Shown here piece by piece: positions 7,662 to 60,064 of a DNA stretch of 64,000 bases (positions are counted from its first letter, which is position 1; each line of letters starts with the position of its first letter). The notes under the pieces are model-generated. The model saw nothing but the letters and a program-made list of their open reading frames with translations. It was not told the DNA's origin and did not search any database. Source of the stretch: Escherichia phage AidaStucki_Bas93; the sequence record PQ850593.1. One strand, 5' to 3'. Made by a program: the position numbers and the translations under genes.

Positions 7662-10220
7662 ATGATCGTTTATAATAACCAAGCACCTGATGCAGTGAAT
7701 AACGTTGGGCAGTTTGGTGCTACTGAAGGCTCTATCGGAGCTTACAAGCAAGCGGCAGAATATGCAGCTGATTCTAAGTATTGGTCACTGTTGGCAGAGG
7801 CTAAGTTTGGTACAGTTGATGACTTGATTGCTCAGGTTGAGATTCTATACAAACAAGGTGTTCTATTAAGAGAAGATATTGAAGACTTAAAACAAGACTT
7901 CATTGCACAAGATGCTCGTTTGATGAACCTCATTGCTCAAACTAACGCAGCTGTAGCTGATGCAAATAATGCAGTTGCTCTGATTAATCAGAAACTTGTA
8001 GAAGTTCAGAATCAACTCGACGTTCTGTTGGGAATGTCTGTTGACGTAACTACACTTCCTCCGGGAACTCCGGCTACTGGCTCTTTTAATCCGAACACTG
8101 GTGTAATCTCTCTGGGTATCCCAGAAGGTGATCCCGGAAAGGATGGTTCTGTTACTGACCTATCTGCTGCTCCTACCGGTACACCGGAGCTGGGGGACAT
8201 CGGTTTCTATGTTGACAAAGATGATAACATTGTTCACAAAACAACTCTCGAAGATATTGCAAACCTGATCCCATCTGTTCGTTCTGTTTCAGTTAACGAT
8301 GGCCCTGCGCTTGATGGTGAAGTTGCTCTTACACTCAACAAAGAGACGGTAGGTCTTGGGAACGTTTTGAACGTGGCTCAGTACAGCCGCCAAGAGATTA
8401 ATGATAAGTTTGACAAAACAACTAAAACCTACCAATCGAAAGCCGAAGCTGATGCGGATGCTCAATACCGACAGGTAGGAGAAAAGGTTTTGGTGTGGGA
8501 CTCAACGAAGTATGAATTCTATACTGTTGCAGCGAATAAAACCCTTACTCCGGTTAAAACAGAAGGTCGTATCCTAACTGTTAACTCCCGTGCTCCTGAT
8601 TCAACTGGTAACATCGATATCGTAATCCCAACAGGAAACCCATCTTTGTATTTAGGGGAGATGGTAATGTTCCCTTATGACCCAGCTAAAGCTGTCTCCT
8701 ATCCGGGCATTCTTCCTGCGGACGGTCGTTTGGTGTCAAAAGAATCTGCTTTGGATTTAGGCCCATCCCTTATCAGTGGACAACTCCCTGTTGTTTCTGA
8801 AACAGAGTGGCAAGCTGGTGCTAAGCAGTATTTCTCTTGGGGTAAATTAGCCGATGGCATCACTGATGCAGATTCTACTAACTATATCAATATCCGTCTT
8901 CCTGATTGGACAGGCGGTGAGGCTATTCGATCCCCTGATTCTGTAAAAGATAGTGCATATAAAGGTAATGTTCAAAGTCAGGTCCCTTATGTAGTCACTG
9001 TAAATAACCAAGCTCCTGATGAGATTACAGGTAACGTCAATATCTCCAGATCTATCTTAGGTGCTGCTGCTGCTGGTGCAAACTCTGATATAACATCTCT
9101 CGCAGGGCTTACAACAGCGCTTTCTGTCACTCAGGGTGGAACAGGTGCAAAGAATTCCAATGATGCTAAGGTAAATTTAGATTTAGACAGAATAGAGCAA
9201 GGTTCTGGAGAGACTAAGATCCTATCTCCAAATAAAGAAACCTACATGTTTGTTGATAATGACGGGTGGGGTTGTTACCGTACCACGGCTGGGTTGGTCG
9301 GTACTGTAGCTTTGTCAGTTGAGAGAGGGGGCACTGGAGCAACAGATGTTGCTAGTGCAAGAGATAATCTAGGACTTAAATCTCTTTCTACATTAGATAT
9401 TGTTCCAGTAACAAAAGGTGGTACAGGTGCTAGTGATGCTGCCGGTGCAAGGTTTAATTTGGGGTTGGGAAATGTTTCTACTCTGGACAACGTACCAATC
9501 GCTAGTGGTGGTACAGGTGCTAGTGATGCTGCCGGTGCCCGAAGCAACCTCGGAGCGCTGAGTAACACTCCAGCAAACACAGGTGCAGGTAATACTGGTG
9601 CGCGAGTCCAACATGCCACCGGAAGAGGTCTGTTTACTTTAGACATGTTTAACTGCTACTGGTATATGCAGCCAGAGGATACTAACTTCTGGGTTGCCCA
9701 CGGTGTGTCATATGCAGGGCCTAATGGCGAAGCCTCAGAGTATGGTCGTATATCTTACGCAATAAAGATTGCAGATGGAACAACAAAATATGTCCATTGT
9801 CTTACAAACAAAAACACCATCATTGATACAGGCGGATTTATCAAAGCGGCATCTCCGGTAGTTAACATTTATGCCAACGGTCGGTATGAAACGAACGATG
9901 AGTCTGAGGGGGTTAGTGTCATCCGGCAGGGTATTGGTGAATATCTGATTACCGGTTGCCTCGGTCTTAACTCTGATGCAAGATGGGGTGGGGTGGATGG
10001 GGGGTTTGAAATCCCAACAGATCGCAACAAGCAACCTAGGATTTGGCTGGACTATGAGGTTAAAGAAGATGGTTCTATTTTAGTTAAAACCTATCACAGA
10101 ACTCACCCAACCTCTCCAGTTTTTGCTAGAAACGAGATAGAAGGTTTTTCTGATGGGGACCCTATTGATATTCCAAGTGATGCTTTTATCTCAGTTCGTG
10201 TAGAGATGCCAGCTGAGTAA
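7662..10220 (+). CDS. tail fiber protein
   Basis: 852 aa. N-terminal coiled coil, then four tandem GGTGA(x)nAR(x)NLGL repeats (aa about 495-640) typical of phage fibers. Confidence 0.7.
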   Translation: MIVYNNQAPDAVNNVGQFGATEGSIGAYKQAAEYAADSKYWSLLAEAKFGTVDDLIAQVEILYKQGVLLREDIEDLKQDFIAQDARLMNLIAQTNAAVADANNAVALINQKLVEVQNQLDVLLGMSVDVTTLPPGTPATGSFNPNTGVISLGIPEGDPGKDGSVTDLSAAPTGTPELGDIGFYVDKDDNIVHKTTLEDIANLIPSVRSVSVNDGPALDGEVALTLNKETVGLGNVLNVAQYSRQEINDKFDKTTKTYQSKAEADADAQYRQVGEKVLVWDSTKYEFYTVAANKTLTPVKTEGRILTVNSRAPDSTGNIDIVIPTGNPSLYLGEMVMFPYDPAKAVSYPGILPADGRLVSKESALDLGPSLISGQLPVVSETEWQAGAKQYFSWGKLADGITDADSTNYINIRLPDWTGGEAIRSPDSVKDSAYKGNVQSQVPYVVTVNNQAPDEITGNVNISRSILGAAAAGANSDITSLAGLTTALSVTQGGTGAKNSNDAKVNLDLDRIEQGSGETKILSPNKETYMFVDNDGWGCYRTTAGLVGTVALSVERGGTGATDVASARDNLGLKSLSTLDIVPVTKGGTGASDAAGARFNLGLGNVSTLDNVPIASGGTGASDAAGARSNLGALSNTPANTGAGNTGARVQHATGRGLFTLDMFNCYWYMQPEDTNFWVAHGVSYAGPNGEASEYGRISYAIKIADGTTKYVHCLTNKNTIIDTGGFIKAASPVVNIYANGRYETNDESEGVSVIRQGIGEYLITGCLGLNSDARWGGVDGGFEIPTDRNKQPRIWLDYEVKEDGSILVKTYHRTHPTSPVFARNEIEGFSDGDPIDIPSDAFISVRVEMPAE
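9417..9538 (+). repeat. 32-bp perfect direct repeat inside the tail fiber gene (9417-9448 and 9507-9538, 90-bp period)
   Basis: ggtggtacaggtgctagtgatgctgccggtgc occurs twice and encodes the GGTGASDAAGA repeat units. Confidence 0.9.
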
Positions 10221-21284: not shown

Positions 21285-22253
21285 ATGGCTTTATTTGGAG
21301 GAGGGAATAGTAAAACTACTTCCCAAATGATTCGCCCTGAATACATTCAACAGTATATTGACCAGCTTAACCAACTGATTGGTAATACTAGTTCAGGGGA
21401 TTATGTTTATCGTGACAATGTAGGGTTTAATAATAACCAGACAGAAGCTCTTAACAACTTAGCACAATCTGGTGCTCTAGGGACTCTCTCGCAGCAATAT
21501 ATGGATGCAGCAGGTCAAGGGTTAGGTTATCTGGATAATGCCTATAAAGGTTATCAGAGCCTTTCTGGACAAGGCGGAGTTACTGGAGAACAGATTGGTG
21601 CTCTTGCTGGTCAACTATATGATGACGATGCTGTGCAAGCAGCTATTACAGCTAATAATGAACAAGTTCAACAAAACCTAGCACGTAATGCTCTTCCTCA
21701 GCTAGCTCAACAATATGCTGGTCAGCAGGGTTCAGGTGCTCGTATGGCTAAATCTTTTGCTCAAGGCGATGCTCTGAATCAGATGCAAGGACAAGCAACA
21801 GATATTACCAACAGTGCCTATAATTCGGCTATCAGTCAAGCTGAAAGCATTCTCTCTGGTAATAGACAGAATCAGGCAGCTGCTCTCTCAGGTCTTTCCA
21901 ATATTGGTTCTAACCTTTCTAACTTAGGTCAGCAAGGTGCTAATTTGTCTCAACAGCAAATGTTGAATCAATGGAATGCAGGGTTGCAGCAACAACAGCA
22001 ACAACAGAATGAATATGATAATGCCTACCAGAATGCCCAGAATGCAGCTAACTGGGGATGGCAGGATATCAATAACCAACTCGGTGCAGCAGGTGTACTT
22101 AACGGTGCTCTTGGACAAACTACAACTACCAAAACATCTGGTGGTGGCGGTGGCTTCTTAGGTGGAGCTATGAGTGGTGCAGCGGCAGGTTCTTCCTTTG
22201 GACCTTGGGGTGCATTGGCAGGGGGCGTAATCGGTGGGTTGGCTAGTAATTAA
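21285..22253 (+). CDS. Q/N/G-rich internal virion protein, paralog B
   Basis: 322 aa. Carries MALFGGGNSKTT and GFNNNQTEALNNLA. The C-terminus is a glycine-zipper hydrophobic tail (GGGGFLGGAMSGAAAG...GGVIGGLA). Confidence 0.5.
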   Translation: MALFGGGNSKTTSQMIRPEYIQQYIDQLNQLIGNTSSGDYVYRDNVGFNNNQTEALNNLAQSGALGTLSQQYMDAAGQGLGYLDNAYKGYQSLSGQGGVTGEQIGALAGQLYDDDAVQAAITANNEQVQQNLARNALPQLAQQYAGQQGSGARMAKSFAQGDALNQMQGQATDITNSAYNSAISQAESILSGNRQNQAAALSGLSNIGSNLSNLGQQGANLSQQQMLNQWNAGLQQQQQQQNEYDNAYQNAQNAANWGWQDINNQLGAAGVLNGALGQTTTTKTSGGGGGFLGGAMSGAAAGSSFGPWGALAGGVIGGLASN

Positions 22254-58718: not shown

Positions 58719-58963
58719 TAAAATAGGGGGAGGGGACGAATCCTCCCTTATCCTATTAATTAGTATTGCATGTAAGATCTAACAATCGGTTTCCTTTGTA
58801 GGAATAAGCGTTATGCTCATCCAGCACTAAACTCCCGCCCCCTTAGTGGGCTGGGTTATTAAAGGGTAACGCCCTTATGGGCTAGTTACGTGAATGTTAG
58901 TTTGATAGGAGATCTGAAGTCCTATCTCAAAGGACTCTCGTAAGAATCCTTCACGATAAGCTC

Positions 58964-59161
58964 TTAATATACTAATCCGTGTAAGAGAAACACTCTCTTA
59001 GTTAACTCTGCTTTAGCTCTGTAATAAGCCGTAGAACCTAACAGGCGGCTCTTAACAAAGAACTTGATGTCATTGCTTACGTCTTGTATTAAACGCTCCT
59101 GTACAGCTTCTGAGGAGCTATTAATTGAATCAATTAACACCTTTGTAGATGTGTAATTCAC
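58964..59161 (-). CDS. hypothetical protein
   Basis: 65 aa from the GTG after ggag. The longer track ORF overlaps the lipoprotein gene. Confidence 0.4.
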   Translation of the reverse strand: MNYTSTKVLIDSINSSSEAVQERLIQDVSNDIKFFVKSRLLGSTAYYRAKAELTKRVFLLHGLVY

Positions 59162-59162
59162 A

Positions 59163-59444
59163 TCACCACTCCTTACCGGTTGTAGTTGTAGAGCCACCAC
59201 ACCACTGTGCATTAGATAAGGTTTTAGTCTCCTCATCCATTGCTGCACCATTCATGCATGAGATACCATTGTAACGCATATCAATTTCGCCAGAAGGAAC
59301 CTTCTCACCTTTATGCCAGCGAGATACACAAATACCTTCCACTGCTACTGCACACCATCCATCAGGACGGCTCTGTACACAGCCTGTAAGGGCCACACAG
59401 ACAAGGAAGATACAGATTAAGGATATTACACCACCCCAACTCAT
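59163..59444 (-). CDS. small lipoprotein
   Basis: 93 aa from the ATG after ggaggtg. Signal peptide plus lipobox (MSWGGVISLICIFLVCVALTGC). The mature part is Cys-rich. Confidence 0.6.
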   Translation of the reverse strand: MSWGGVISLICIFLVCVALTGCVQSRPDGWCAVAVEGICVSRWHKGEKVPSGEIDMRYNGISCMNGAAMDEETKTLSNAQWCGGSTTTTGKEW

Positions 59445-59455
59445 AACACACCTCC

Positions 59456-59559
59456 AAGAGCTTCTAGCGAGGATGACAGGGTTCGAACCTGCATACTCCA
59501 ATTACTTCTTTAACGACCGCTTAGAAGGCGGGGAAGATACATCCTCGCTAGAAGCTCTT
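59456..59559. repeat. 20-bp perfect inverted repeat flanking the tRNA-like element
   Basis: aagagcttctagcgaggatg (59456-59475) is the exact reverse complement of 59540-59559. Confidence 0.95.
59468..59546 (-). tRNA. tRNA-like element, possibly a non-canonical tRNA-Arg(UCU)
   Basis: 7-bp acceptor stem (GAGGATG/CATCCTC). Canonical T arm (GCAGG-TTCGAAC-CCTGT). A hairpin CCGC-CUUCUAA-GCGG with U33 and anticodon UCU. I could not draw a D arm, 23 nt lie between the anticodon arm and the T arm, and no CCA is encoded. Confidence 0.45.
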
Positions 59560-60064
59560 ATTTATTATTGAAACCCTTGCTCCAGTAATACTTACCATTG
59601 CAAGACCTACTACAAAAATGATTTTGGTTTTCTTTGTGGACCTTGTTACTCCTTCTCTCAAAAGATGTGCCACAATTACTGCAAACCAAAGTTATGACCA
59701 CACCCTTAGGTCTGTTCTCTAAGGTCTTCTTTAAGTGATCATTTGTGCTTAGAATCTGAAGGTTAGATATCTCATCATTGGTTGGATTTTGATCAACATG
59801 ATCTACCTCTTCCTCTGTAGTGAGATATCTTCCTATGTGGCAGGACATTAAGTACCTAGCATAAGAAACAGTAGACCTGTCTTTATCAGAGTTGTAAAGA
59901 TCTACAACCCTTCTCCCCTCTCGATTTTGACGAAGATATCCCCACCTCCAGTCATTGCAGTAGGGATAATCTAATTGTATTTTCAAATTACCTCCTGCTC
60001 TATCCATTGAGCTAAGAGCGCTTAATTTATTTAGATCATATCTCGCTTGGTGATAGGACCACAC
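59558..60064 (-). CDS. HNH homing-type endonuclease
   Basis: 168 aa. Carries EVDHVDQNPTNDEISNLQILSTNDHLKK (HNH_3-like) and a C-terminal Zn ribbon (CSNC...CSRSC). The start is uncertain (GTG 60064 lacks an SD). Confidence 0.65.
   Translation of the reverse strand: MWSYHQARYDLNKLSALSSMDRAGGNLKIQLDYPYCNDWRWGYLRQNREGRRVVDLYNSDKDRSTVSYARYLMSCHIGRYLTTEEEVDHVDQNPTNDEISNLQILSTNDHLKKTLENRPKGVVITLVCSNCGTSFERRSNKVHKENQNHFCSRSCNGKYYWSKGFNNK

What the first reader, a model, noticed from the sequence alone, without database searches (positions are those of the whole stretch)
59456..59559. A tRNA-like RNA with acceptor, T arm and UCU anticodon-type loop lacks a D arm and is clamped by a 20-bp perfect inverted repeat
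In the sequence (- strand): the order is GAGGATG-UA-UCUUC-[CCGC CUUCUAA GCGG]-UCGUUAAAGAAGUAAUUGGAGUAU-[GCAGG UUCGAAC CCUGU]-CAUCCUC-G. That gives a 7-bp acceptor stem, U8, a canonical T arm, and a 7-nt loop with U33 and UCU (Arg, reading AGA/AGG). Only 7 nt lie where the D arm should be, and 23 nt lie where the variable loop should be. That 23-nt stretch contains GUAAUUGGAG, which looks like a displaced D-loop. I tried alternative registers and found no cloverleaf. The acceptor helix continues outward to 20 perfect base pairs (59456-75 with 59540-59), ideal for RNase III-type processing. No CCA is encoded. An HNH endonuclease gene ends inside the repeat, and a partial third copy of the arm (cacgataagctctta) lies at 58952-58966. 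Inference: this could be an unusual functional tRNA-Arg, or a tRNA mimic or decoy (for example against anticodon nucleases or tRNA-targeting defences). It could also be a rearranged pseudogene left by endonuclease-mediated recombination.
Basis: partly seen in the sequence, partly recalled or inferred. Interest (0 to 1): 0.6.

Follow-up and report, generated by a model that had tools for sequence, protein, structure and literature searches.

The report
Phage tRNA-Arg with swapped D-arm strands
The flagged sequence is a gene for an arginine tRNA whose D-arm halves sit in swapped order along the chain; it belongs to a large, phage-only, almost unannotated class of such rearranged tRNAs, and here it travels with a homing endonuclease that has destroyed the phage's ordinary tRNA-Arg gene.

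Summary
Window 59468-59546 (- strand) has a 7-bp acceptor stem, a T arm and a CUUCUAA anticodon loop, with no D arm in the usual place. A perfect 20-bp inverted repeat clamps it.

It is not a pseudogene. The same architecture occurs in 172 distinct sequences from viral contigs and in at least 261 GenBank phage records (Felix O1-like, phi92-like, Vequintavirinae, Kuravirus, jumbo phages). It is essentially absent from 185,579 cellular genomes.

Covariation proves an extra 3-bp helix (CNN/NNG; here CUUC/GAAG) that encloses the anticodon arm. After it comes a D-loop-like UAAYUGGA...AU that runs straight into the T stem. This equals a canonical tRNA with segments 10-21 and 22-47 exchanged.

All 116 members with A at "position 20" carry Arg anticodons. 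All 56 members without it carry Ile, CAU or Val anticodons and A73. Phages that hold the UCU form almost never hold a canonical tRNA-Arg(UCU). The best reading is therefore a functional tRNA-Arg(UCU).

In this window the gene is cargo of an HNH cassette inserted at nucleotide 27 of the resident canonical tRNA-Arg gene; the 27-nt remnant is at 59995-60021. The clamp replaces an encoded CCA, as in 10 of 13 CCA-less relatives, and is probably a processing helix. I found no prior description. Charging and expression are untested.

The parts
59468..59546 (-). Gene for the swapped-D-arm tRNA-Arg(UCU), 79 nt from acceptor nucleotide 1 to discriminator G; no CCA encoded
   Evidence: Rfam tRNA 29.7 bits. 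Own covariance model R1 94 bits, against 35 bits or less for canonical tRNAs. Ungapped alignment with 40 other distinct family members.
59540..59546 (-). Acceptor stem 5' strand GAGGAUG (pairs with 59469-59475)
   Evidence: All 7 pairs covary in alignment A1; 99.3% of cells paired.
59533..59536 (-). Helix X 5' strand CUUC (equivalent to D-stem positions 22/23-25 plus 26). It runs directly into the anticodon stem.
   Evidence: Columns 11-13 pair with 40-42. C-G is invariant; the second pair is UA30/AU8/GC3 and the third is CG34/UA4/GC3, with none unpaired. In the 172-member set, 98.3% of cells are paired against 21-38% in slid registers, with 16 helix types.
59516..59532 (-). Anticodon arm: stem CCCGC/GCGGU (first pair is a C-U mismatch), loop CUUCUAA, anticodon UCU at 59523-59525
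   Evidence: Four of five pairs covary. The loop is identical in 40 of 41 family members.
59509..59515 (-). Bulge CGUUAAA on the 3' side between the anticodon stem and helix X (variable-loop 44-47 analogue)
   Evidence: CGUUAA is invariant in the 41-member subfamily. Other subfamilies have 3-5 nt here: AGAAA, UGAAA, AGUA, AGAA.
59505..59508 (-). Helix X 3' strand GAAG (equivalent to D-stem positions 10-12/13)
   Evidence: Same as for the helix X 5' strand. The window's CUUC/GAAG differs from the common CUC(A)/(C)GAG by compensatory changes.
59493..59504 (-). D-loop-like segment UAAUUGGAGUAU running straight into the T stem. Proposed equivalents: A14 A15 Y16 Y17 G18 G19 A20 ... A21 U48.
   Evidence: G42 U43 A44 A45 and G48 G49 A50 G51 U52 A53 U54 are invariant in A1. 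Only the two positions that are variable in canonical D loops vary. The 'AU' before the T stem is kept in all common variants of the 172-member set, although the search pattern left it free.
59476..59492 (-). T arm GCAGG-UUCGAAC-CCUGU
   Evidence: 99.5% of cells paired; three pairs covary.
59547..59559 (-). Clamp, 5' arm extension AAGAGCUUCUAGC. It begins with the last two bases of the HNH stop codon.
   Evidence: Part of the perfect 20-bp inverted repeat. Ten of 13 CCA-less family variants have a clamp of 12-21 bp with unrelated sequences; the 28 CCA-encoding variants have none.
59456..59468 (-). Clamp, 3' arm extension GCUAGAAGCUCUU. It starts at the discriminator G, which pairs with C59547.
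59558..59986 (-). Free-standing HNH homing endonuclease gene (TTG start 59986, RBS AGGAGG 59996-59991, stop 59560-59558)
   Evidence: phrog_14913 HNH endonuclease, E 3e-54, full-length from residue 1 of the TTG-started protein. Pfam HNH_3 is weak at 21.5 bits. Present or absent among near-identical kuraviruses.
59995..60021 (-). 5' remnant (acceptor strand, complete D arm, nucleotide 26) of the resident canonical tRNA-Arg(UCU) gene, truncated by the HNH cassette
   Evidence: Identical to the first 27 nt of the phage LAMP tRNA-Arg and its upstream flank. Homology ends where the HNH RBS starts.
59163..59444 (-). Downstream lipoprotein gene (RBS GGAGG 59451-59455, directly after the clamp). Backbone homology with relatives resumes here.

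Best explanation
**What it is.** The element is a gene for a non-canonical but functional tRNA-Arg(UCU).

**Chain order.** Along the chain it reads:
1. acceptor 5' strand
2. U8-A9-U
3. one D-stem strand (CUUC)
4. anticodon arm
5. a 7-nt bulge
6. the other D-stem strand (GAAG)
7. a D-loop-like UAAUUGGAGUAU
8. T arm
9. acceptor 3' strand
10. discriminator G73

This equals a canonical tRNA in which segments 10-21 and 22-47 have changed places (a non-circular permutation).

**Proposed fold (inferred).** The short helix can stack on the anticodon stem as the D stem normally does. The G18-G19-like bases can still reach the T loop. The core bases U8, A14, A15, A21 and U48 are all available.

**What is shown.**
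- The secondary structure, by covariation.
- Membership in a phage-restricted class.
- Retention of the ArgRS identity set: A20, C35, U36, G73.
- The gene takes the place of the canonical tRNA-Arg(UCU) that related phages carry.

**What is inferred.** The RNA is cut out of the HNH-tRNA-lipoprotein transcript, with the 20-bp clamp serving as the processing helix (RNase III, then RNase P and 3' trimming). It receives CCA from the host enzyme and is charged by host ArgRS. It then reads AGA (and AGG), codons this phage uses about four times more often than E. coli.

**How it got here.** The gene arrived as cargo of a free-standing HNH homing endonuclease. That endonuclease inserted at the D-arm/anticodon-stem junction of the resident canonical tRNA-Arg gene. 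The cargo tRNA restores the function that the insertion destroyed. It also lacks that junction, so it should be immune to re-cleavage (inferred).
For: **Structure**
- 41 distinct ungapped homologues were aligned. All acceptor pairs covary, as do 4 of 5 anticodon-stem and 3 of 5 T-stem pairs.
- Helix X (columns 11-13 with 40-42) is 100% paired, with UA/AU/GC and CG/UA/GC exchanges.
- In 172 distinct members, helix X is 98.3% paired against 21-38% in slid registers. 163 of 172 are fully paired, against a shuffle mean of 48 and maximum of 63. There are 16 helix types.
- The search pattern that found the helix variants did not constrain the 5' strand.

**Identity elements**
- A at the position-20 equivalent goes with Arg anticodons in 116 of 116 members (UCU, CCU, ACG, GCG, UCG).
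- Non-A goes with UAU, GAU, CAU or UAC plus A73 in 56 of 56 members. The anticodon was unconstrained in both scans.
- The published ArgRS identity set is A20, C35, U/G36 and A/G73, with A20 the main determinant for the E. coli enzyme (PMC9976931).

**Gene-like context**
- 63 of 116 Arg members encode NCCA.
- In phi92-type phages the gene sits inside the tRNA array behind its own TTGACA-18-TATAGT promoter, like its neighbours.
- Contig L157 carries three swapped Arg isoacceptors (CCU, ACG, UCU) side by side.

**Substitution for the canonical gene**
- Of 63 family loci, only one also has a canonical tRNA-Arg(UCU), while Arg(ACG) or Arg(UCG) are common.
- The phi92 and SSBI34 arrays have 15 and 10 canonical tRNAs and no Arg.
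- This window has no other tRNA.
- Kuravirus relatives have a canonical tRNA-Arg(UCU) at exactly this locus.

**Codon demand**
- AGA is 9.3 per thousand codons and 17% of Arg codons in 36 long ORFs.

**Phage restriction**
- There are 3 hits, all in MAG contigs, in 596 Gb of cellular genomes.
- At least 261 GenBank phage records hold it.

**Cassette**
- The 27-nt remnant and the junction are shown.
- The HNH gene is identified.
- Bas94 keeps the same tRNA without an HNH gene.
Against: - No expression, end-mapping, charging or decoding data exist; everything functional is inferred.
- Thermodynamic folding contains helix X in only 9 of 172 members, so the helix rests on covariation alone.
- The 3D equivalence to a canonical L-shape is reasoned, not modelled.
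- The window's anticodon stem starts with a C-U mismatch.
- The clamp pairs the discriminator and leader, which by itself should hinder RNase P and 3' processing.
- No CCA is encoded.
- The Rfam score is barely above threshold and ARAGORN rejects it.
- 17 of 116 Arg-type members have U73 and one has C73, which is not the preferred E. coli ArgRS discriminator.
- No selective reason for the swap is shown.
Confidence: 0.7

Rival explanations
1. It is a tRNA mimic or decoy, not a decoder. The RNA is made and looks enough like tRNA-Arg to bind a host factor (an anticodon nuclease, ArgRS, or a modification or defence protein) and titrate it, but it does not deliver arginine on the ribosome.
For: - The topology is non-canonical and the bulge CGUUAA is strictly invariant, which could be a protein-binding surface.
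- Phage tRNAs are known to counter tRNA-cleaving defences, for example Septu cleaving tRNA-Tyr (PMC13096335, listed).
- The clamp and missing CCA in this window would disfavour charging.
Against: - Identity elements co-vary with the anticodon class across two amino-acid identities: A20 with Arg in 116 of 116 members, non-A20 plus A73 with Ile/Met/Val in 56 of 56. A decoy for one nuclease does not need this.
- More than half of the Arg members encode CCA.
- The distribution is complementary to canonical tRNA-Arg(UCU).
- Three Arg isoacceptors occur in one array.
Confidence: 0.14
2. It is chiefly an mRNA punctuation or stability element. The clamped tRNA-shaped fold serves as a processing or termination signal that separates the HNH message from the lipoprotein message. 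The tRNA-like body matters only as an RNase P/RNase III recognition shape.
For: - It lies between two ORFs, with the stop codon inside one arm and the next RBS right after the other arm.
- Clamps recur with different sequences next to protein genes.
- Several clamps are followed by T runs.
Against: - Most family members have no clamp and sit in tRNA arrays with CCA and their own promoters.
- The anticodon loop and identity bases would not need conservation for punctuation.
- Bas94 keeps the tRNA after losing the HNH gene and half of the clamp.
- No terminator-like site is called at the clamp in the window.
Confidence: 0.08
3. It is a rearranged pseudogene or recombination scar left by endonuclease activity, or a DNA-level inverted-repeat element with no RNA role.
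For: - The locus is a hot spot of HNH-driven replacement, with true tRNA remnants.
- ARAGORN rejects the sequence.
Against: - The same 79-nt layout, without a single indel, is found in 41 distinct sequences from unrelated phage groups, with compensatory changes in every helix.
- 172 distinct members exist overall.
- The inverted-repeat sequences differ between lineages while pairing is kept.
Confidence: 0.02

Closest known systems
Canonical bacterial and phage tRNA-Arg(UCU) (E. coli argU type; the tRNA-Arg of kuraviruses LAMP, Bas92, O18-011 at the same locus)
   Same: - 7-bp acceptor stem
- 5-bp anticodon stem with the same CUUCUAA loop
- GUUCGANYC T arm
- G18-G19-A20 motif and G/A73
- same genomic slot and presumed job of reading AGA
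   Different: - The D-stem strands and D loop are not contiguous. The order is 22-26, anticodon arm, variable-loop analogue, 10-21, 48, instead of 10-21, 22-26, anticodon arm, 44-48.
- ARAGORN finds none of the 172 members.
- Model R1 separates them by about 60 bits.
D-armless mitochondrial tRNAs (e.g. metazoan mt-tRNA-Ser(AGY/UCU); review PMC7609411)
   Same: Few nucleotides lie between the acceptor stem and the anticodon stem. The tRNA reads AGN codons.
   Different: - Those tRNAs truly lack a D stem and the G18-G19/T-loop contact, and they work with specialised mitochondrial factors.
- Here the D stem and D-loop motifs are retained but relocated.
- The hosts are ordinary bacteria.
tRNA mimics with permuted connectivity: TYMV tRNA-like structure and bacterial Y RNA (YrlA) (PMC11472068)
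   Same: A tRNA-shaped fold is reached with a different strand order. The TYMV TLS is aminoacylated.
   Different: - The TLS builds its acceptor arm from a pseudoknot at a viral RNA 3' end.
- YrlA is a circular permutation with no anticodon or charging.
- Here the acceptor, anticodon and T arms are standard, and only the D region is exchanged.
Circularly permuted tRNA genes of Cyanidioschyzon merolae and other algae (Soma; cited in PMC10085705)
   Same: The gene order of tRNA segments differs from the canonical order.
   Different: - There the whole gene is circularly permuted, and processing through a circular intermediate restores a normal tRNA.
- Here the 5' and 3' ends are in normal order and the exchange is internal, so no simple processing could restore the canonical order.
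Non-circularly permuted hammerhead and hairpin ribozymes (PMC10085705)
   Same: A natural RNA family in which internal segments changed order while the presumed 3D arrangement is kept.
   Different: It is a different RNA class. That paper states that no non-circular permutations were known in natural RNAs before it, and it does not report tRNAs.
Free-standing homing endonucleases in phage tRNA regions (T4 SegB, PMC2330249)
   Same: An endonuclease gene sits beside tRNA genes and drives preferential inheritance of the adjacent tRNA region.
   Different: - Here the endonuclease is HNH rather than GIY-YIG.
- It is inserted inside the target tRNA gene.
- It carries a structurally different replacement tRNA.

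Membership tests
tRNA (canonical cloverleaf, Rfam RF00005) | 7-bp acceptor stem closing the molecule, with discriminator | tested here: met
   59540-59546 pairs with 59469-59475. All 7 pairs covary in A1.
tRNA (canonical cloverleaf, Rfam RF00005) | T arm with GUUCRANYC loop and 5-bp stem next to the acceptor 3' strand | tested here: met
   GCAGG-UUCGAAC-CCUGU; 99.5% of cells paired in the family.
tRNA (canonical cloverleaf, Rfam RF00005) | Anticodon arm with a 7-nt loop, U33 and purine 37 | tested here: met
   Loop CUUCUAA. The stem is 4 bp plus a C-U mismatch in the window.
tRNA (canonical cloverleaf, Rfam RF00005) | D arm as a hairpin between positions 9 and 26, 5' of the anticodon arm | tested here: not met
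   Only UAUCUUC lies there. Rfam aligns 4 nt against 15 model positions. ARAGORN finds 0 of 172 members.
tRNA (canonical cloverleaf, Rfam RF00005) | Score at or above the family's gathering threshold | tested here: met
   29.7 bits against 29; marginal.
tRNA (canonical cloverleaf, Rfam RF00005) | Stable processed RNA with 3' CCA that is aminoacylated and used by the ribosome | not testable with these tools
   No expression or charging data. CCA is not encoded in the window but is encoded in 73 of 172 members.
tRNA-Arg identity for bacterial ArgRS | A20 in the D loop, C35, U36 or G36, A73 or G73 (PMC9976931) | tested here: met
   Window: GGA with A at 59497, C59524, U59523, G59468. A20 goes with an Arg anticodon in 116 of 116 members. 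The equivalence of the relocated A to position 20 is an inference.
Swapped-D-arm tRNA class (defined here) | 3-bp covarying helix CNN/NNG enclosing the anticodon arm, with 0-1 nt on the 5' side and a 3-8 nt bulge on the 3' side | tested here: met
   Window CUUC/GAAG with a 7-nt bulge.
Swapped-D-arm tRNA class (defined here) | UAAYUGGN...AU segment between that helix and the T stem, with UAU after the acceptor 5' strand | tested here: met
   Window UAAUUGGAGUAU and UAU. R1 score 94 bits.
D-armless mitochondrial-type tRNA | D arm replaced by a short unstructured connector, with no D stem and no G18-G19/T-loop contact | tested here: not met
   A covarying D-stem-like helix and an invariant GG motif are present.
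Circularly permuted tRNA gene | 3' half of the tRNA encoded upstream of the 5' half, with ends joined through a circular intermediate | tested here: not met
   The acceptor 5' and 3' strands are in normal order at the ends of the gene.
Free-standing HNH homing endonuclease cassette | HNH nuclease domain | tested here: met
   phrog_14913 E 3e-54. Pfam HNH_3 at 21.5 bits is below its 24.8 cut-off.
Free-standing HNH homing endonuclease cassette | Presence/absence polymorphism among close relatives, with flanking homology and a disrupted target | tested here: met
   LAMP has the intact target. The window, 1-6af and O18-011 have the 5' remnant followed by HNH. Bas94 lacks HNH.
Free-standing HNH homing endonuclease cassette | Site-specific cleavage of the HNH-less allele and gene conversion in co-infection | not testable with these tools
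   Needs enzyme assays or crosses.
RNase III processing helix | About two turns of uninterrupted double-stranded RNA in a transcript | tested here: met
   20 perfect base pairs; the fold is kept in the MFE.
RNase III processing helix | Staggered cleavage in vivo that depends on rnc | not testable with these tools
   Needs end mapping in wild-type and rnc hosts.

The most novel reading that the evidence does not exclude
These would be the first natural, translationally active tRNAs with a non-circularly permuted core (D-stem strands exchanged). They form a large class confined to phages that standard tRNA finders miss. The class covers at least Arg (five anticodons) and Ile, CAU and Val, all clients of class Ia synthetases. 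The exchange may persist because it hides the gene from tRNA-gene-targeting homing endonucleases, or hides the RNA from host tRNA nucleases.
Probability: 0.5. Interest if true: 0.9.

Novelty: new variant of a known kind. Interest (0 to 1): 0.85.

Why it matters
- **tRNA architecture.** If the RNA is charged and decodes, the cloverleaf order of helices is not obligatory for a bacterial-type tRNA. ArgRS, EF-Tu, RNase P and the ribosome would all accept a core built from differently connected strands. That bears on tRNA evolution and on the design of orthogonal tRNAs.
- **Phage annotation.** Hundreds of sequenced phages, including Felix O1-like and phi92-like ones, carry a tRNA gene that is unannotated or hidden under spurious ORFs. 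Their AGA and AUA decoding capacity is therefore underestimated.
- **Homing endonuclease biology.** The locus is a clean example of a homing endonuclease that destroys a tRNA gene and brings its own replacement.
- **An experimental question.** It gives a direct test of whether the rearrangement protects against nucleases that recognise tRNA genes or tRNAs.

Tried and rejected
1. **Long variable arm with a GNRA loop (CCGA-GUAA-UUGG).** This model shows no double-sided changes, is 74% paired, and is broken in the window.
2. **RNAalifold helix GUUA 33-36 with UAAY 43-46.** All its columns are invariant, so it has no support from covariation. It is incompatible with other subfamilies, whose bulges are AGAAA, UGAAA or AGUA. 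It is left open only as a subfamily-specific pseudoknot.
3. **The architecture is Arg-specific.** A control scan with non-A at position 20 rejected this; it found Ile, CAU and Val members.
4. **TAAGAGCTT as a general signal, or as a third copy of the clamp.** Five matches were found against 0.4 expected. Two lie inside long ORFs (21439 on the non-coding strand; coordinates compared with the ORF table). The 58951-58966 copy is backbone sequence shared with Bas92 and Bas94.
5. **A sigma-70 promoter just upstream in the window.** None was found, so co-transcription with HNH is assumed.
6. **Thermodynamic support for helix X.** It is weak: 9 of 172 members.
7. **Cultured-phage homologues of the Ile-type members.** None were found at blastn sensitivity. 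The ACG type was found only in two Microbacterium phages.
8. **Literature.** Nine full-text searches and four papers read for this purpose gave no description of such tRNAs. The library is incomplete, so prior description cannot be excluded.
9. **Pfam on the two commonest Cys-rich neighbour families.** No domain was found. PHROGs gives only unknown-function or endonuclease-like families.
Full report
**1. Observation**

Read on the - strand, window 59546-59468 is:

GAGGAUG-UAU-CUUC-CCCGC-CUUCUAA-GCGGU-CGUUAAA-GAAG-UAAUUGGAGUAU-GCAGG-UUCGAAC-CCUGU-CAUCCUC-G.

- The inverted repeat 59456-59475 / 59540-59559 is 20 nt and 100% complementary.
- With the clamp, the region folds at -50.1 kcal/mol, z = -5.1.
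- ARAGORN finds no tRNA in the whole window.
- Rfam's tRNA model hits 59468-59546 at 29.7 bits (threshold 29). It does so only by deleting the D arm and inserting 20 nt before the T arm.
- The upstream ORF's TAA (59560-59558) overlaps the repeat arm, and no CCA follows the discriminator.

**2. Genomic setting**

The window is a Kuravirus-like (phiEco32-type) coliphage. Outside this locus it is 99.8% identical to phage Bas92.

Relatives carry one ordinary tRNA-Arg(UCU) at exactly this place, but with unrelated sequences:
- LAMP type
- Bas92 type, with a 3' remnant of the LAMP-type gene behind it
- O18-011 type

All three are found by ARAGORN.

The window's odd element recurs at 98.7% identity in phages 1-6af, 1-6bf and FH3, and at 97% in Bas94.

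**3. A conserved family**

Weaker DNA matches led to phi92-like phages, where the element lies inside the tRNA array and is sometimes annotated 'tRNA-OTHER'. They also led to Vequintavirinae and to another kuravirus.

Three pattern scans of IMG/VR gave 41 distinct sequences that align over 80 columns without any gap. Counting pairs on that alignment gave:

| Helix | Columns | Result |
|---|---|---|
| Acceptor | 1-7 with 72-78 | 7 of 7 pairs covary |
| Anticodon stem | 15-19 with 27-31 | 4 of 5 pairs covary |
| T stem | 55-59 with 67-71 | 3 of 5 pairs covary |
| Helix X | 11-13 with 40-42 | C-G invariant; UA30/AU8/GC3; CG34/UA4/GC3; no unpaired cell |

- A fourth helix-X pair (14-39) forms in 10 of 41 sequences, including the window (CUUC/GAAG).
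- The rival model, a GNRA-capped variable arm, has no compensatory change and is 74% paired.
- A covariance model built from the family scores members at 92-104 bits (window 94) and canonical tRNAs at 35 or less.

**4. What the structure means**

Helix X encloses the anticodon arm. Its 5' strand runs with 0-1 intervening nucleotide into the anticodon stem. Its 3' strand is reached through a bulge and is followed by G-UAAYUGGAGUAU and then the T stem.

| Family element | Proposed canonical equivalent |
|---|---|
| UAU after the acceptor stem | U8, A9 and a linker |
| CNN(N) | D-stem 23-25 and nucleotide 26 |
| Bulge | 44-47 |
| (N)NNG-U | 10-13 |
| AAYUGGA | A14 R15 Y16 Y17 G18 G19 A20 |
| Final A-U | A21 and U48 |

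This equals a canonical tRNA in which blocks 10-21 and 22-47 have been exchanged.

- The positions that vary in the relocated loop are the ones that vary in normal D loops.
- The 'AU' before the T stem is kept in all common variants, although it was unconstrained in the searches.
- In other subfamilies the bulge is 4-5 nt, the length of a normal variable loop without position 48.

The 3D equivalence is my inference from established tRNA tertiary structure (U8-A14, R15-Y48, G18/G19-T loop, 9 and 45/46 in the D-stem groove). It was not modelled.

**5. The class is much larger and carries identity signatures**

I scanned for TATC, then 22-36 nt, then GTAAYTGGA, then 7-10 nt, then GTTCGA, and ran a control scan with non-A after GG. 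Together they gave 172 distinct sequences with at least 6 of 7 acceptor pairs and at least 4 of 5 anticodon-stem pairs.

Helix X in this set:
- 98.3% of cells are paired, against 21-38% when the partner is slid.
- 163 of 172 are fully paired, against a shuffle mean of 48 and a maximum of 63.
- There are 16 helix types.

Anticodons and identity elements:

| 'Position 20' | Members | Anticodons | Discriminator |
|---|---|---|---|
| A | 116 | UCU 86, ACG 16, CCU 11, UCG 2, GCG 1 (all Arg) | G 57, A 41, U 17, C 1 |
| not A | 56 | UAU 45, CAU 6, GAU 3, UAC 2 | A73 in all 56 |

- A20, C35, U/G36 and A/G73 are the published ArgRS identity set, with A20 the main determinant for the E. coli enzyme (PMC9976931).
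- Such coupling of anticodon class with identity bases is what aminoacylated tRNAs show. A scar or a simple structural signal would not need it.
- Contig L157 has three swapped Arg isoacceptors in a row. L036 has swapped Arg-ACG and swapped Arg-UCU beside a canonical Arg-UCG.

**6. Substitution for the canonical gene**

- Among 63 loci holding the UCU form, some with 22-26 tRNAs, canonical Arg(ACG) or Arg(UCG) genes are frequent. A canonical Arg(UCU) occurs once, in L020.
- The phi92 and SSBI34 arrays have 15 and 10 canonical tRNAs and none for Arg.
- In phi92-type phages the gene has its own TTGACA-18-TATAGT promoter 12 nt upstream, as does the next tRNA.
- The window phage has no other tRNA.
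- The window phage uses AGA at 9.3 and AGG at 3.8 per thousand codons. From my own knowledge of E. coli codon tables, the host values are roughly 2 and 1 per thousand.

**7. Distribution**

- A strict pattern found only 3 hits in one genome per 185,579 bacterial and archaeal species, all on MAG contigs.
- At least 261 GenBank phage records hold the UCU form. They include Felixounavirus (Felix O1a among them), phi92-like, Vequintavirinae, Kuravirus, 320-375 kb jumbo coliphages, 110- and 145-kb Klebsiella phages, and a Streptomyces phage.
- In these records the gene is nearly always unannotated, labelled 'tRNA-OTHER', or covered by a spurious CDS.
- ARAGORN detects 0 of 172 members.

**8. The clamp**

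| 3' end class | Distinct UCU-subfamily variants | Acceptor helix extension |
|---|---|---|
| NCCA encoded | 28 | none |
| No CCA | 13 | 12-21 bp in 10 of 13 |

- The clamp sequences differ in each lineage while pairing is kept. This argues for selection on the helix.
- Clamped copies tend to lie next to protein genes:
  - HNH_3 genes in the window, L005 and L022
  - an endonuclease-like ORF in L013
  - an RNA ligase in L015
- Bas94 has the window's tRNA without the HNH gene and with a decayed 5' arm. The tRNA is therefore kept without an intact clamp.
- I read the clamp as a processing or insulation helix for a tRNA embedded in an mRNA. RNase III is the obvious candidate, followed by RNase P, 3' trimming and CCA addition. 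This is inference.
- No terminator-like site is called there.

**9. The HNH cassette and a real scar**

- Upstream of the HNH ORF, window 60021-59995 is identical to the first 27 nt of the LAMP-type tRNA-Arg (acceptor strand, whole D arm, nucleotide 26) and to its upstream flank.
- Homology stops at the D-arm/anticodon-stem junction. There AGGAGG and a TTG start (59986) begin the HNH gene.
- The TTG-started protein matches an HNH phrog from its first residue.
- 1-6af and O18-011 show the same kind of junction. O18-011 carries a canonical replacement tRNA instead.
- Backbone homology resumes at the lipoprotein RBS, right after the clamp.
- The mobile unit is therefore RBS-HNH-tRNA. It replaced the 3' two thirds of the resident tRNA gene.
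- The swapped tRNA has no D-arm/anticodon-stem junction, so it should not be a target. This is inferred, and since O18-011 manages with a canonical tRNA, the swap is not required for immunity.

**10. Comparison with what is known**

- The element works like a tRNA-Arg(UCU).
- It fails one defining feature of the canonical cloverleaf: a D hairpin 5' of the anticodon arm.
- It is not a D-armless mitochondrial-type tRNA, not a circularly permuted tRNA gene, and not a TLS or Y RNA-type mimic (see the membership table).
- Reviews of non-canonical tRNAs (PMC7609411) and of RNA permutations (PMC10085705, PMC11472068) do not list such tRNAs. Nine searches of the paper library found none. The library is incomplete, so novelty is probable, not certain.

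**11. Open points**

- Why the strands are swapped.
- Why only class Ia identities were seen. This could be due to common descent or to the sequence anchors used in the scans.
- What the invariant CGUUAA does.
- Whether the clamp helps or hinders maturation.
- Thermodynamic folding rarely predicts helix X (9 of 172).

**Verdict**

This is a real, conserved, phage-specific tRNA variant. In this window it is most likely a functional tRNA-Arg(UCU) delivered by a homing endonuclease. Function is unproven.

Noticed in passing
window 59995-60021 (- strand): A 27-nt 5' remnant (acceptor strand, complete D arm, nucleotide 26) of a canonical LAMP-type tRNA-Arg(UCU) gene. It is cut off exactly where the HNH gene's RBS begins. 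The long ORF call 59558-60064 reads through it; the true HNH start is probably TTG at 59986.
   Followed up: yes
L001 (Bas92) about 2170-2215; L006 (HC-25922) about 1590-1750: These are 3' remnants of older tRNA genes left behind the current tRNA. Bas92 keeps the 3' half of the LAMP-type tRNA-Arg. HC-25922 has two 3' tRNA ends (…GGTTCGAATCCTTCCGTCCCGACCA and …GGTTCGATTCCAGATAGTCCACCA) after its swapped tRNA. The locus has been overwritten repeatedly.
   Followed up: partly
IMG/VR loci L192-L310 (e.g. L193, L220, L239): The same swapped architecture occurs with U, G or C instead of A at the position-20 equivalent. These members carry anticodons UAU (45), CAU (6), GAU (3) and UAC (2), all with A73 and mostly without encoded CCA. 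No match was found in cultured phages for a representative.
   Followed up: partly
L157 1193-1532; L036 2689-2764 and 4029-4108: One 45.5-kb viral contig carries three swapped tRNA-Arg genes (CCU, ACG, UCU) within 340 nt. Another carries swapped Arg-ACG and swapped Arg-UCU next to a canonical Arg-UCG.
   Followed up: partly
L020 1522-1692: This is the only locus where a canonical tRNA-Arg(UCU) sits directly beside a clamped, CCA-less swapped tRNA-Arg(UCU). It may be an intermediate in replacement, or a case where both are kept.
   Followed up: no
neighbours of swapped tRNAs in 168 dereplicated loci (e.g. L102 3265-4281, L115 3635-4672): The two commonest neighbouring ORF families (29 and 26 loci) are Cys-rich proteins with no Pfam domain (phrog_23051; phrog_22215). 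The second shares a phrog with an endonuclease-like ORF next to the clamped tRNA of L013. Both are possibly undescribed homing endonucleases of tRNA arrays.
   Followed up: partly
L015 1075-2094; L010 2847-3857: An RNA ligase (PF09414 with a PHA02142 OB domain) and a DUF2828 protein lie immediately downstream of clamped swapped tRNAs.
   Followed up: no
window 58951-58966, 21439-21453, 48744-48758: TAAGAGCTT(C/A)T recurs five times in the window against 0.4 expected. Two copies lie inside long ORFs, and the 58951 copy follows a stop codon like the clamp arm. Its meaning is unclear and it may be chance.
   Followed up: partly
L090 (phi92 RefSeq NC_023693) 7875-7954: The phi92 reference annotation has no feature at the swapped tRNA. 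It lists 'hypothetical tRNA' features elsewhere, one of them inside the nicotinamide phosphoribosyltransferase gene. In several Felix O1-like records the swapped tRNA is covered by a 'hypothetical protein' or 'HNH endonuclease' CDS.
   Followed up: no
GenBank MG065639, MG065645, MG065656, MG065689: Records named 'Campylobacter phage' A150, A145, C3 and A110a (146 kb) match the element exactly as phi92-type coliphages do. Their host assignment may be wrong.
   Followed up: no
alignment A1 columns 33-36 and 43-46 (window 59514-59511 and 59504-59501): RNAalifold pairs the invariant GUUA of the bulge with UAAY of the D-loop-like segment. With helix X this would form a pseudoknot. There is no covariation to test it, and it is absent from other subfamilies.
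   Followed up: partly
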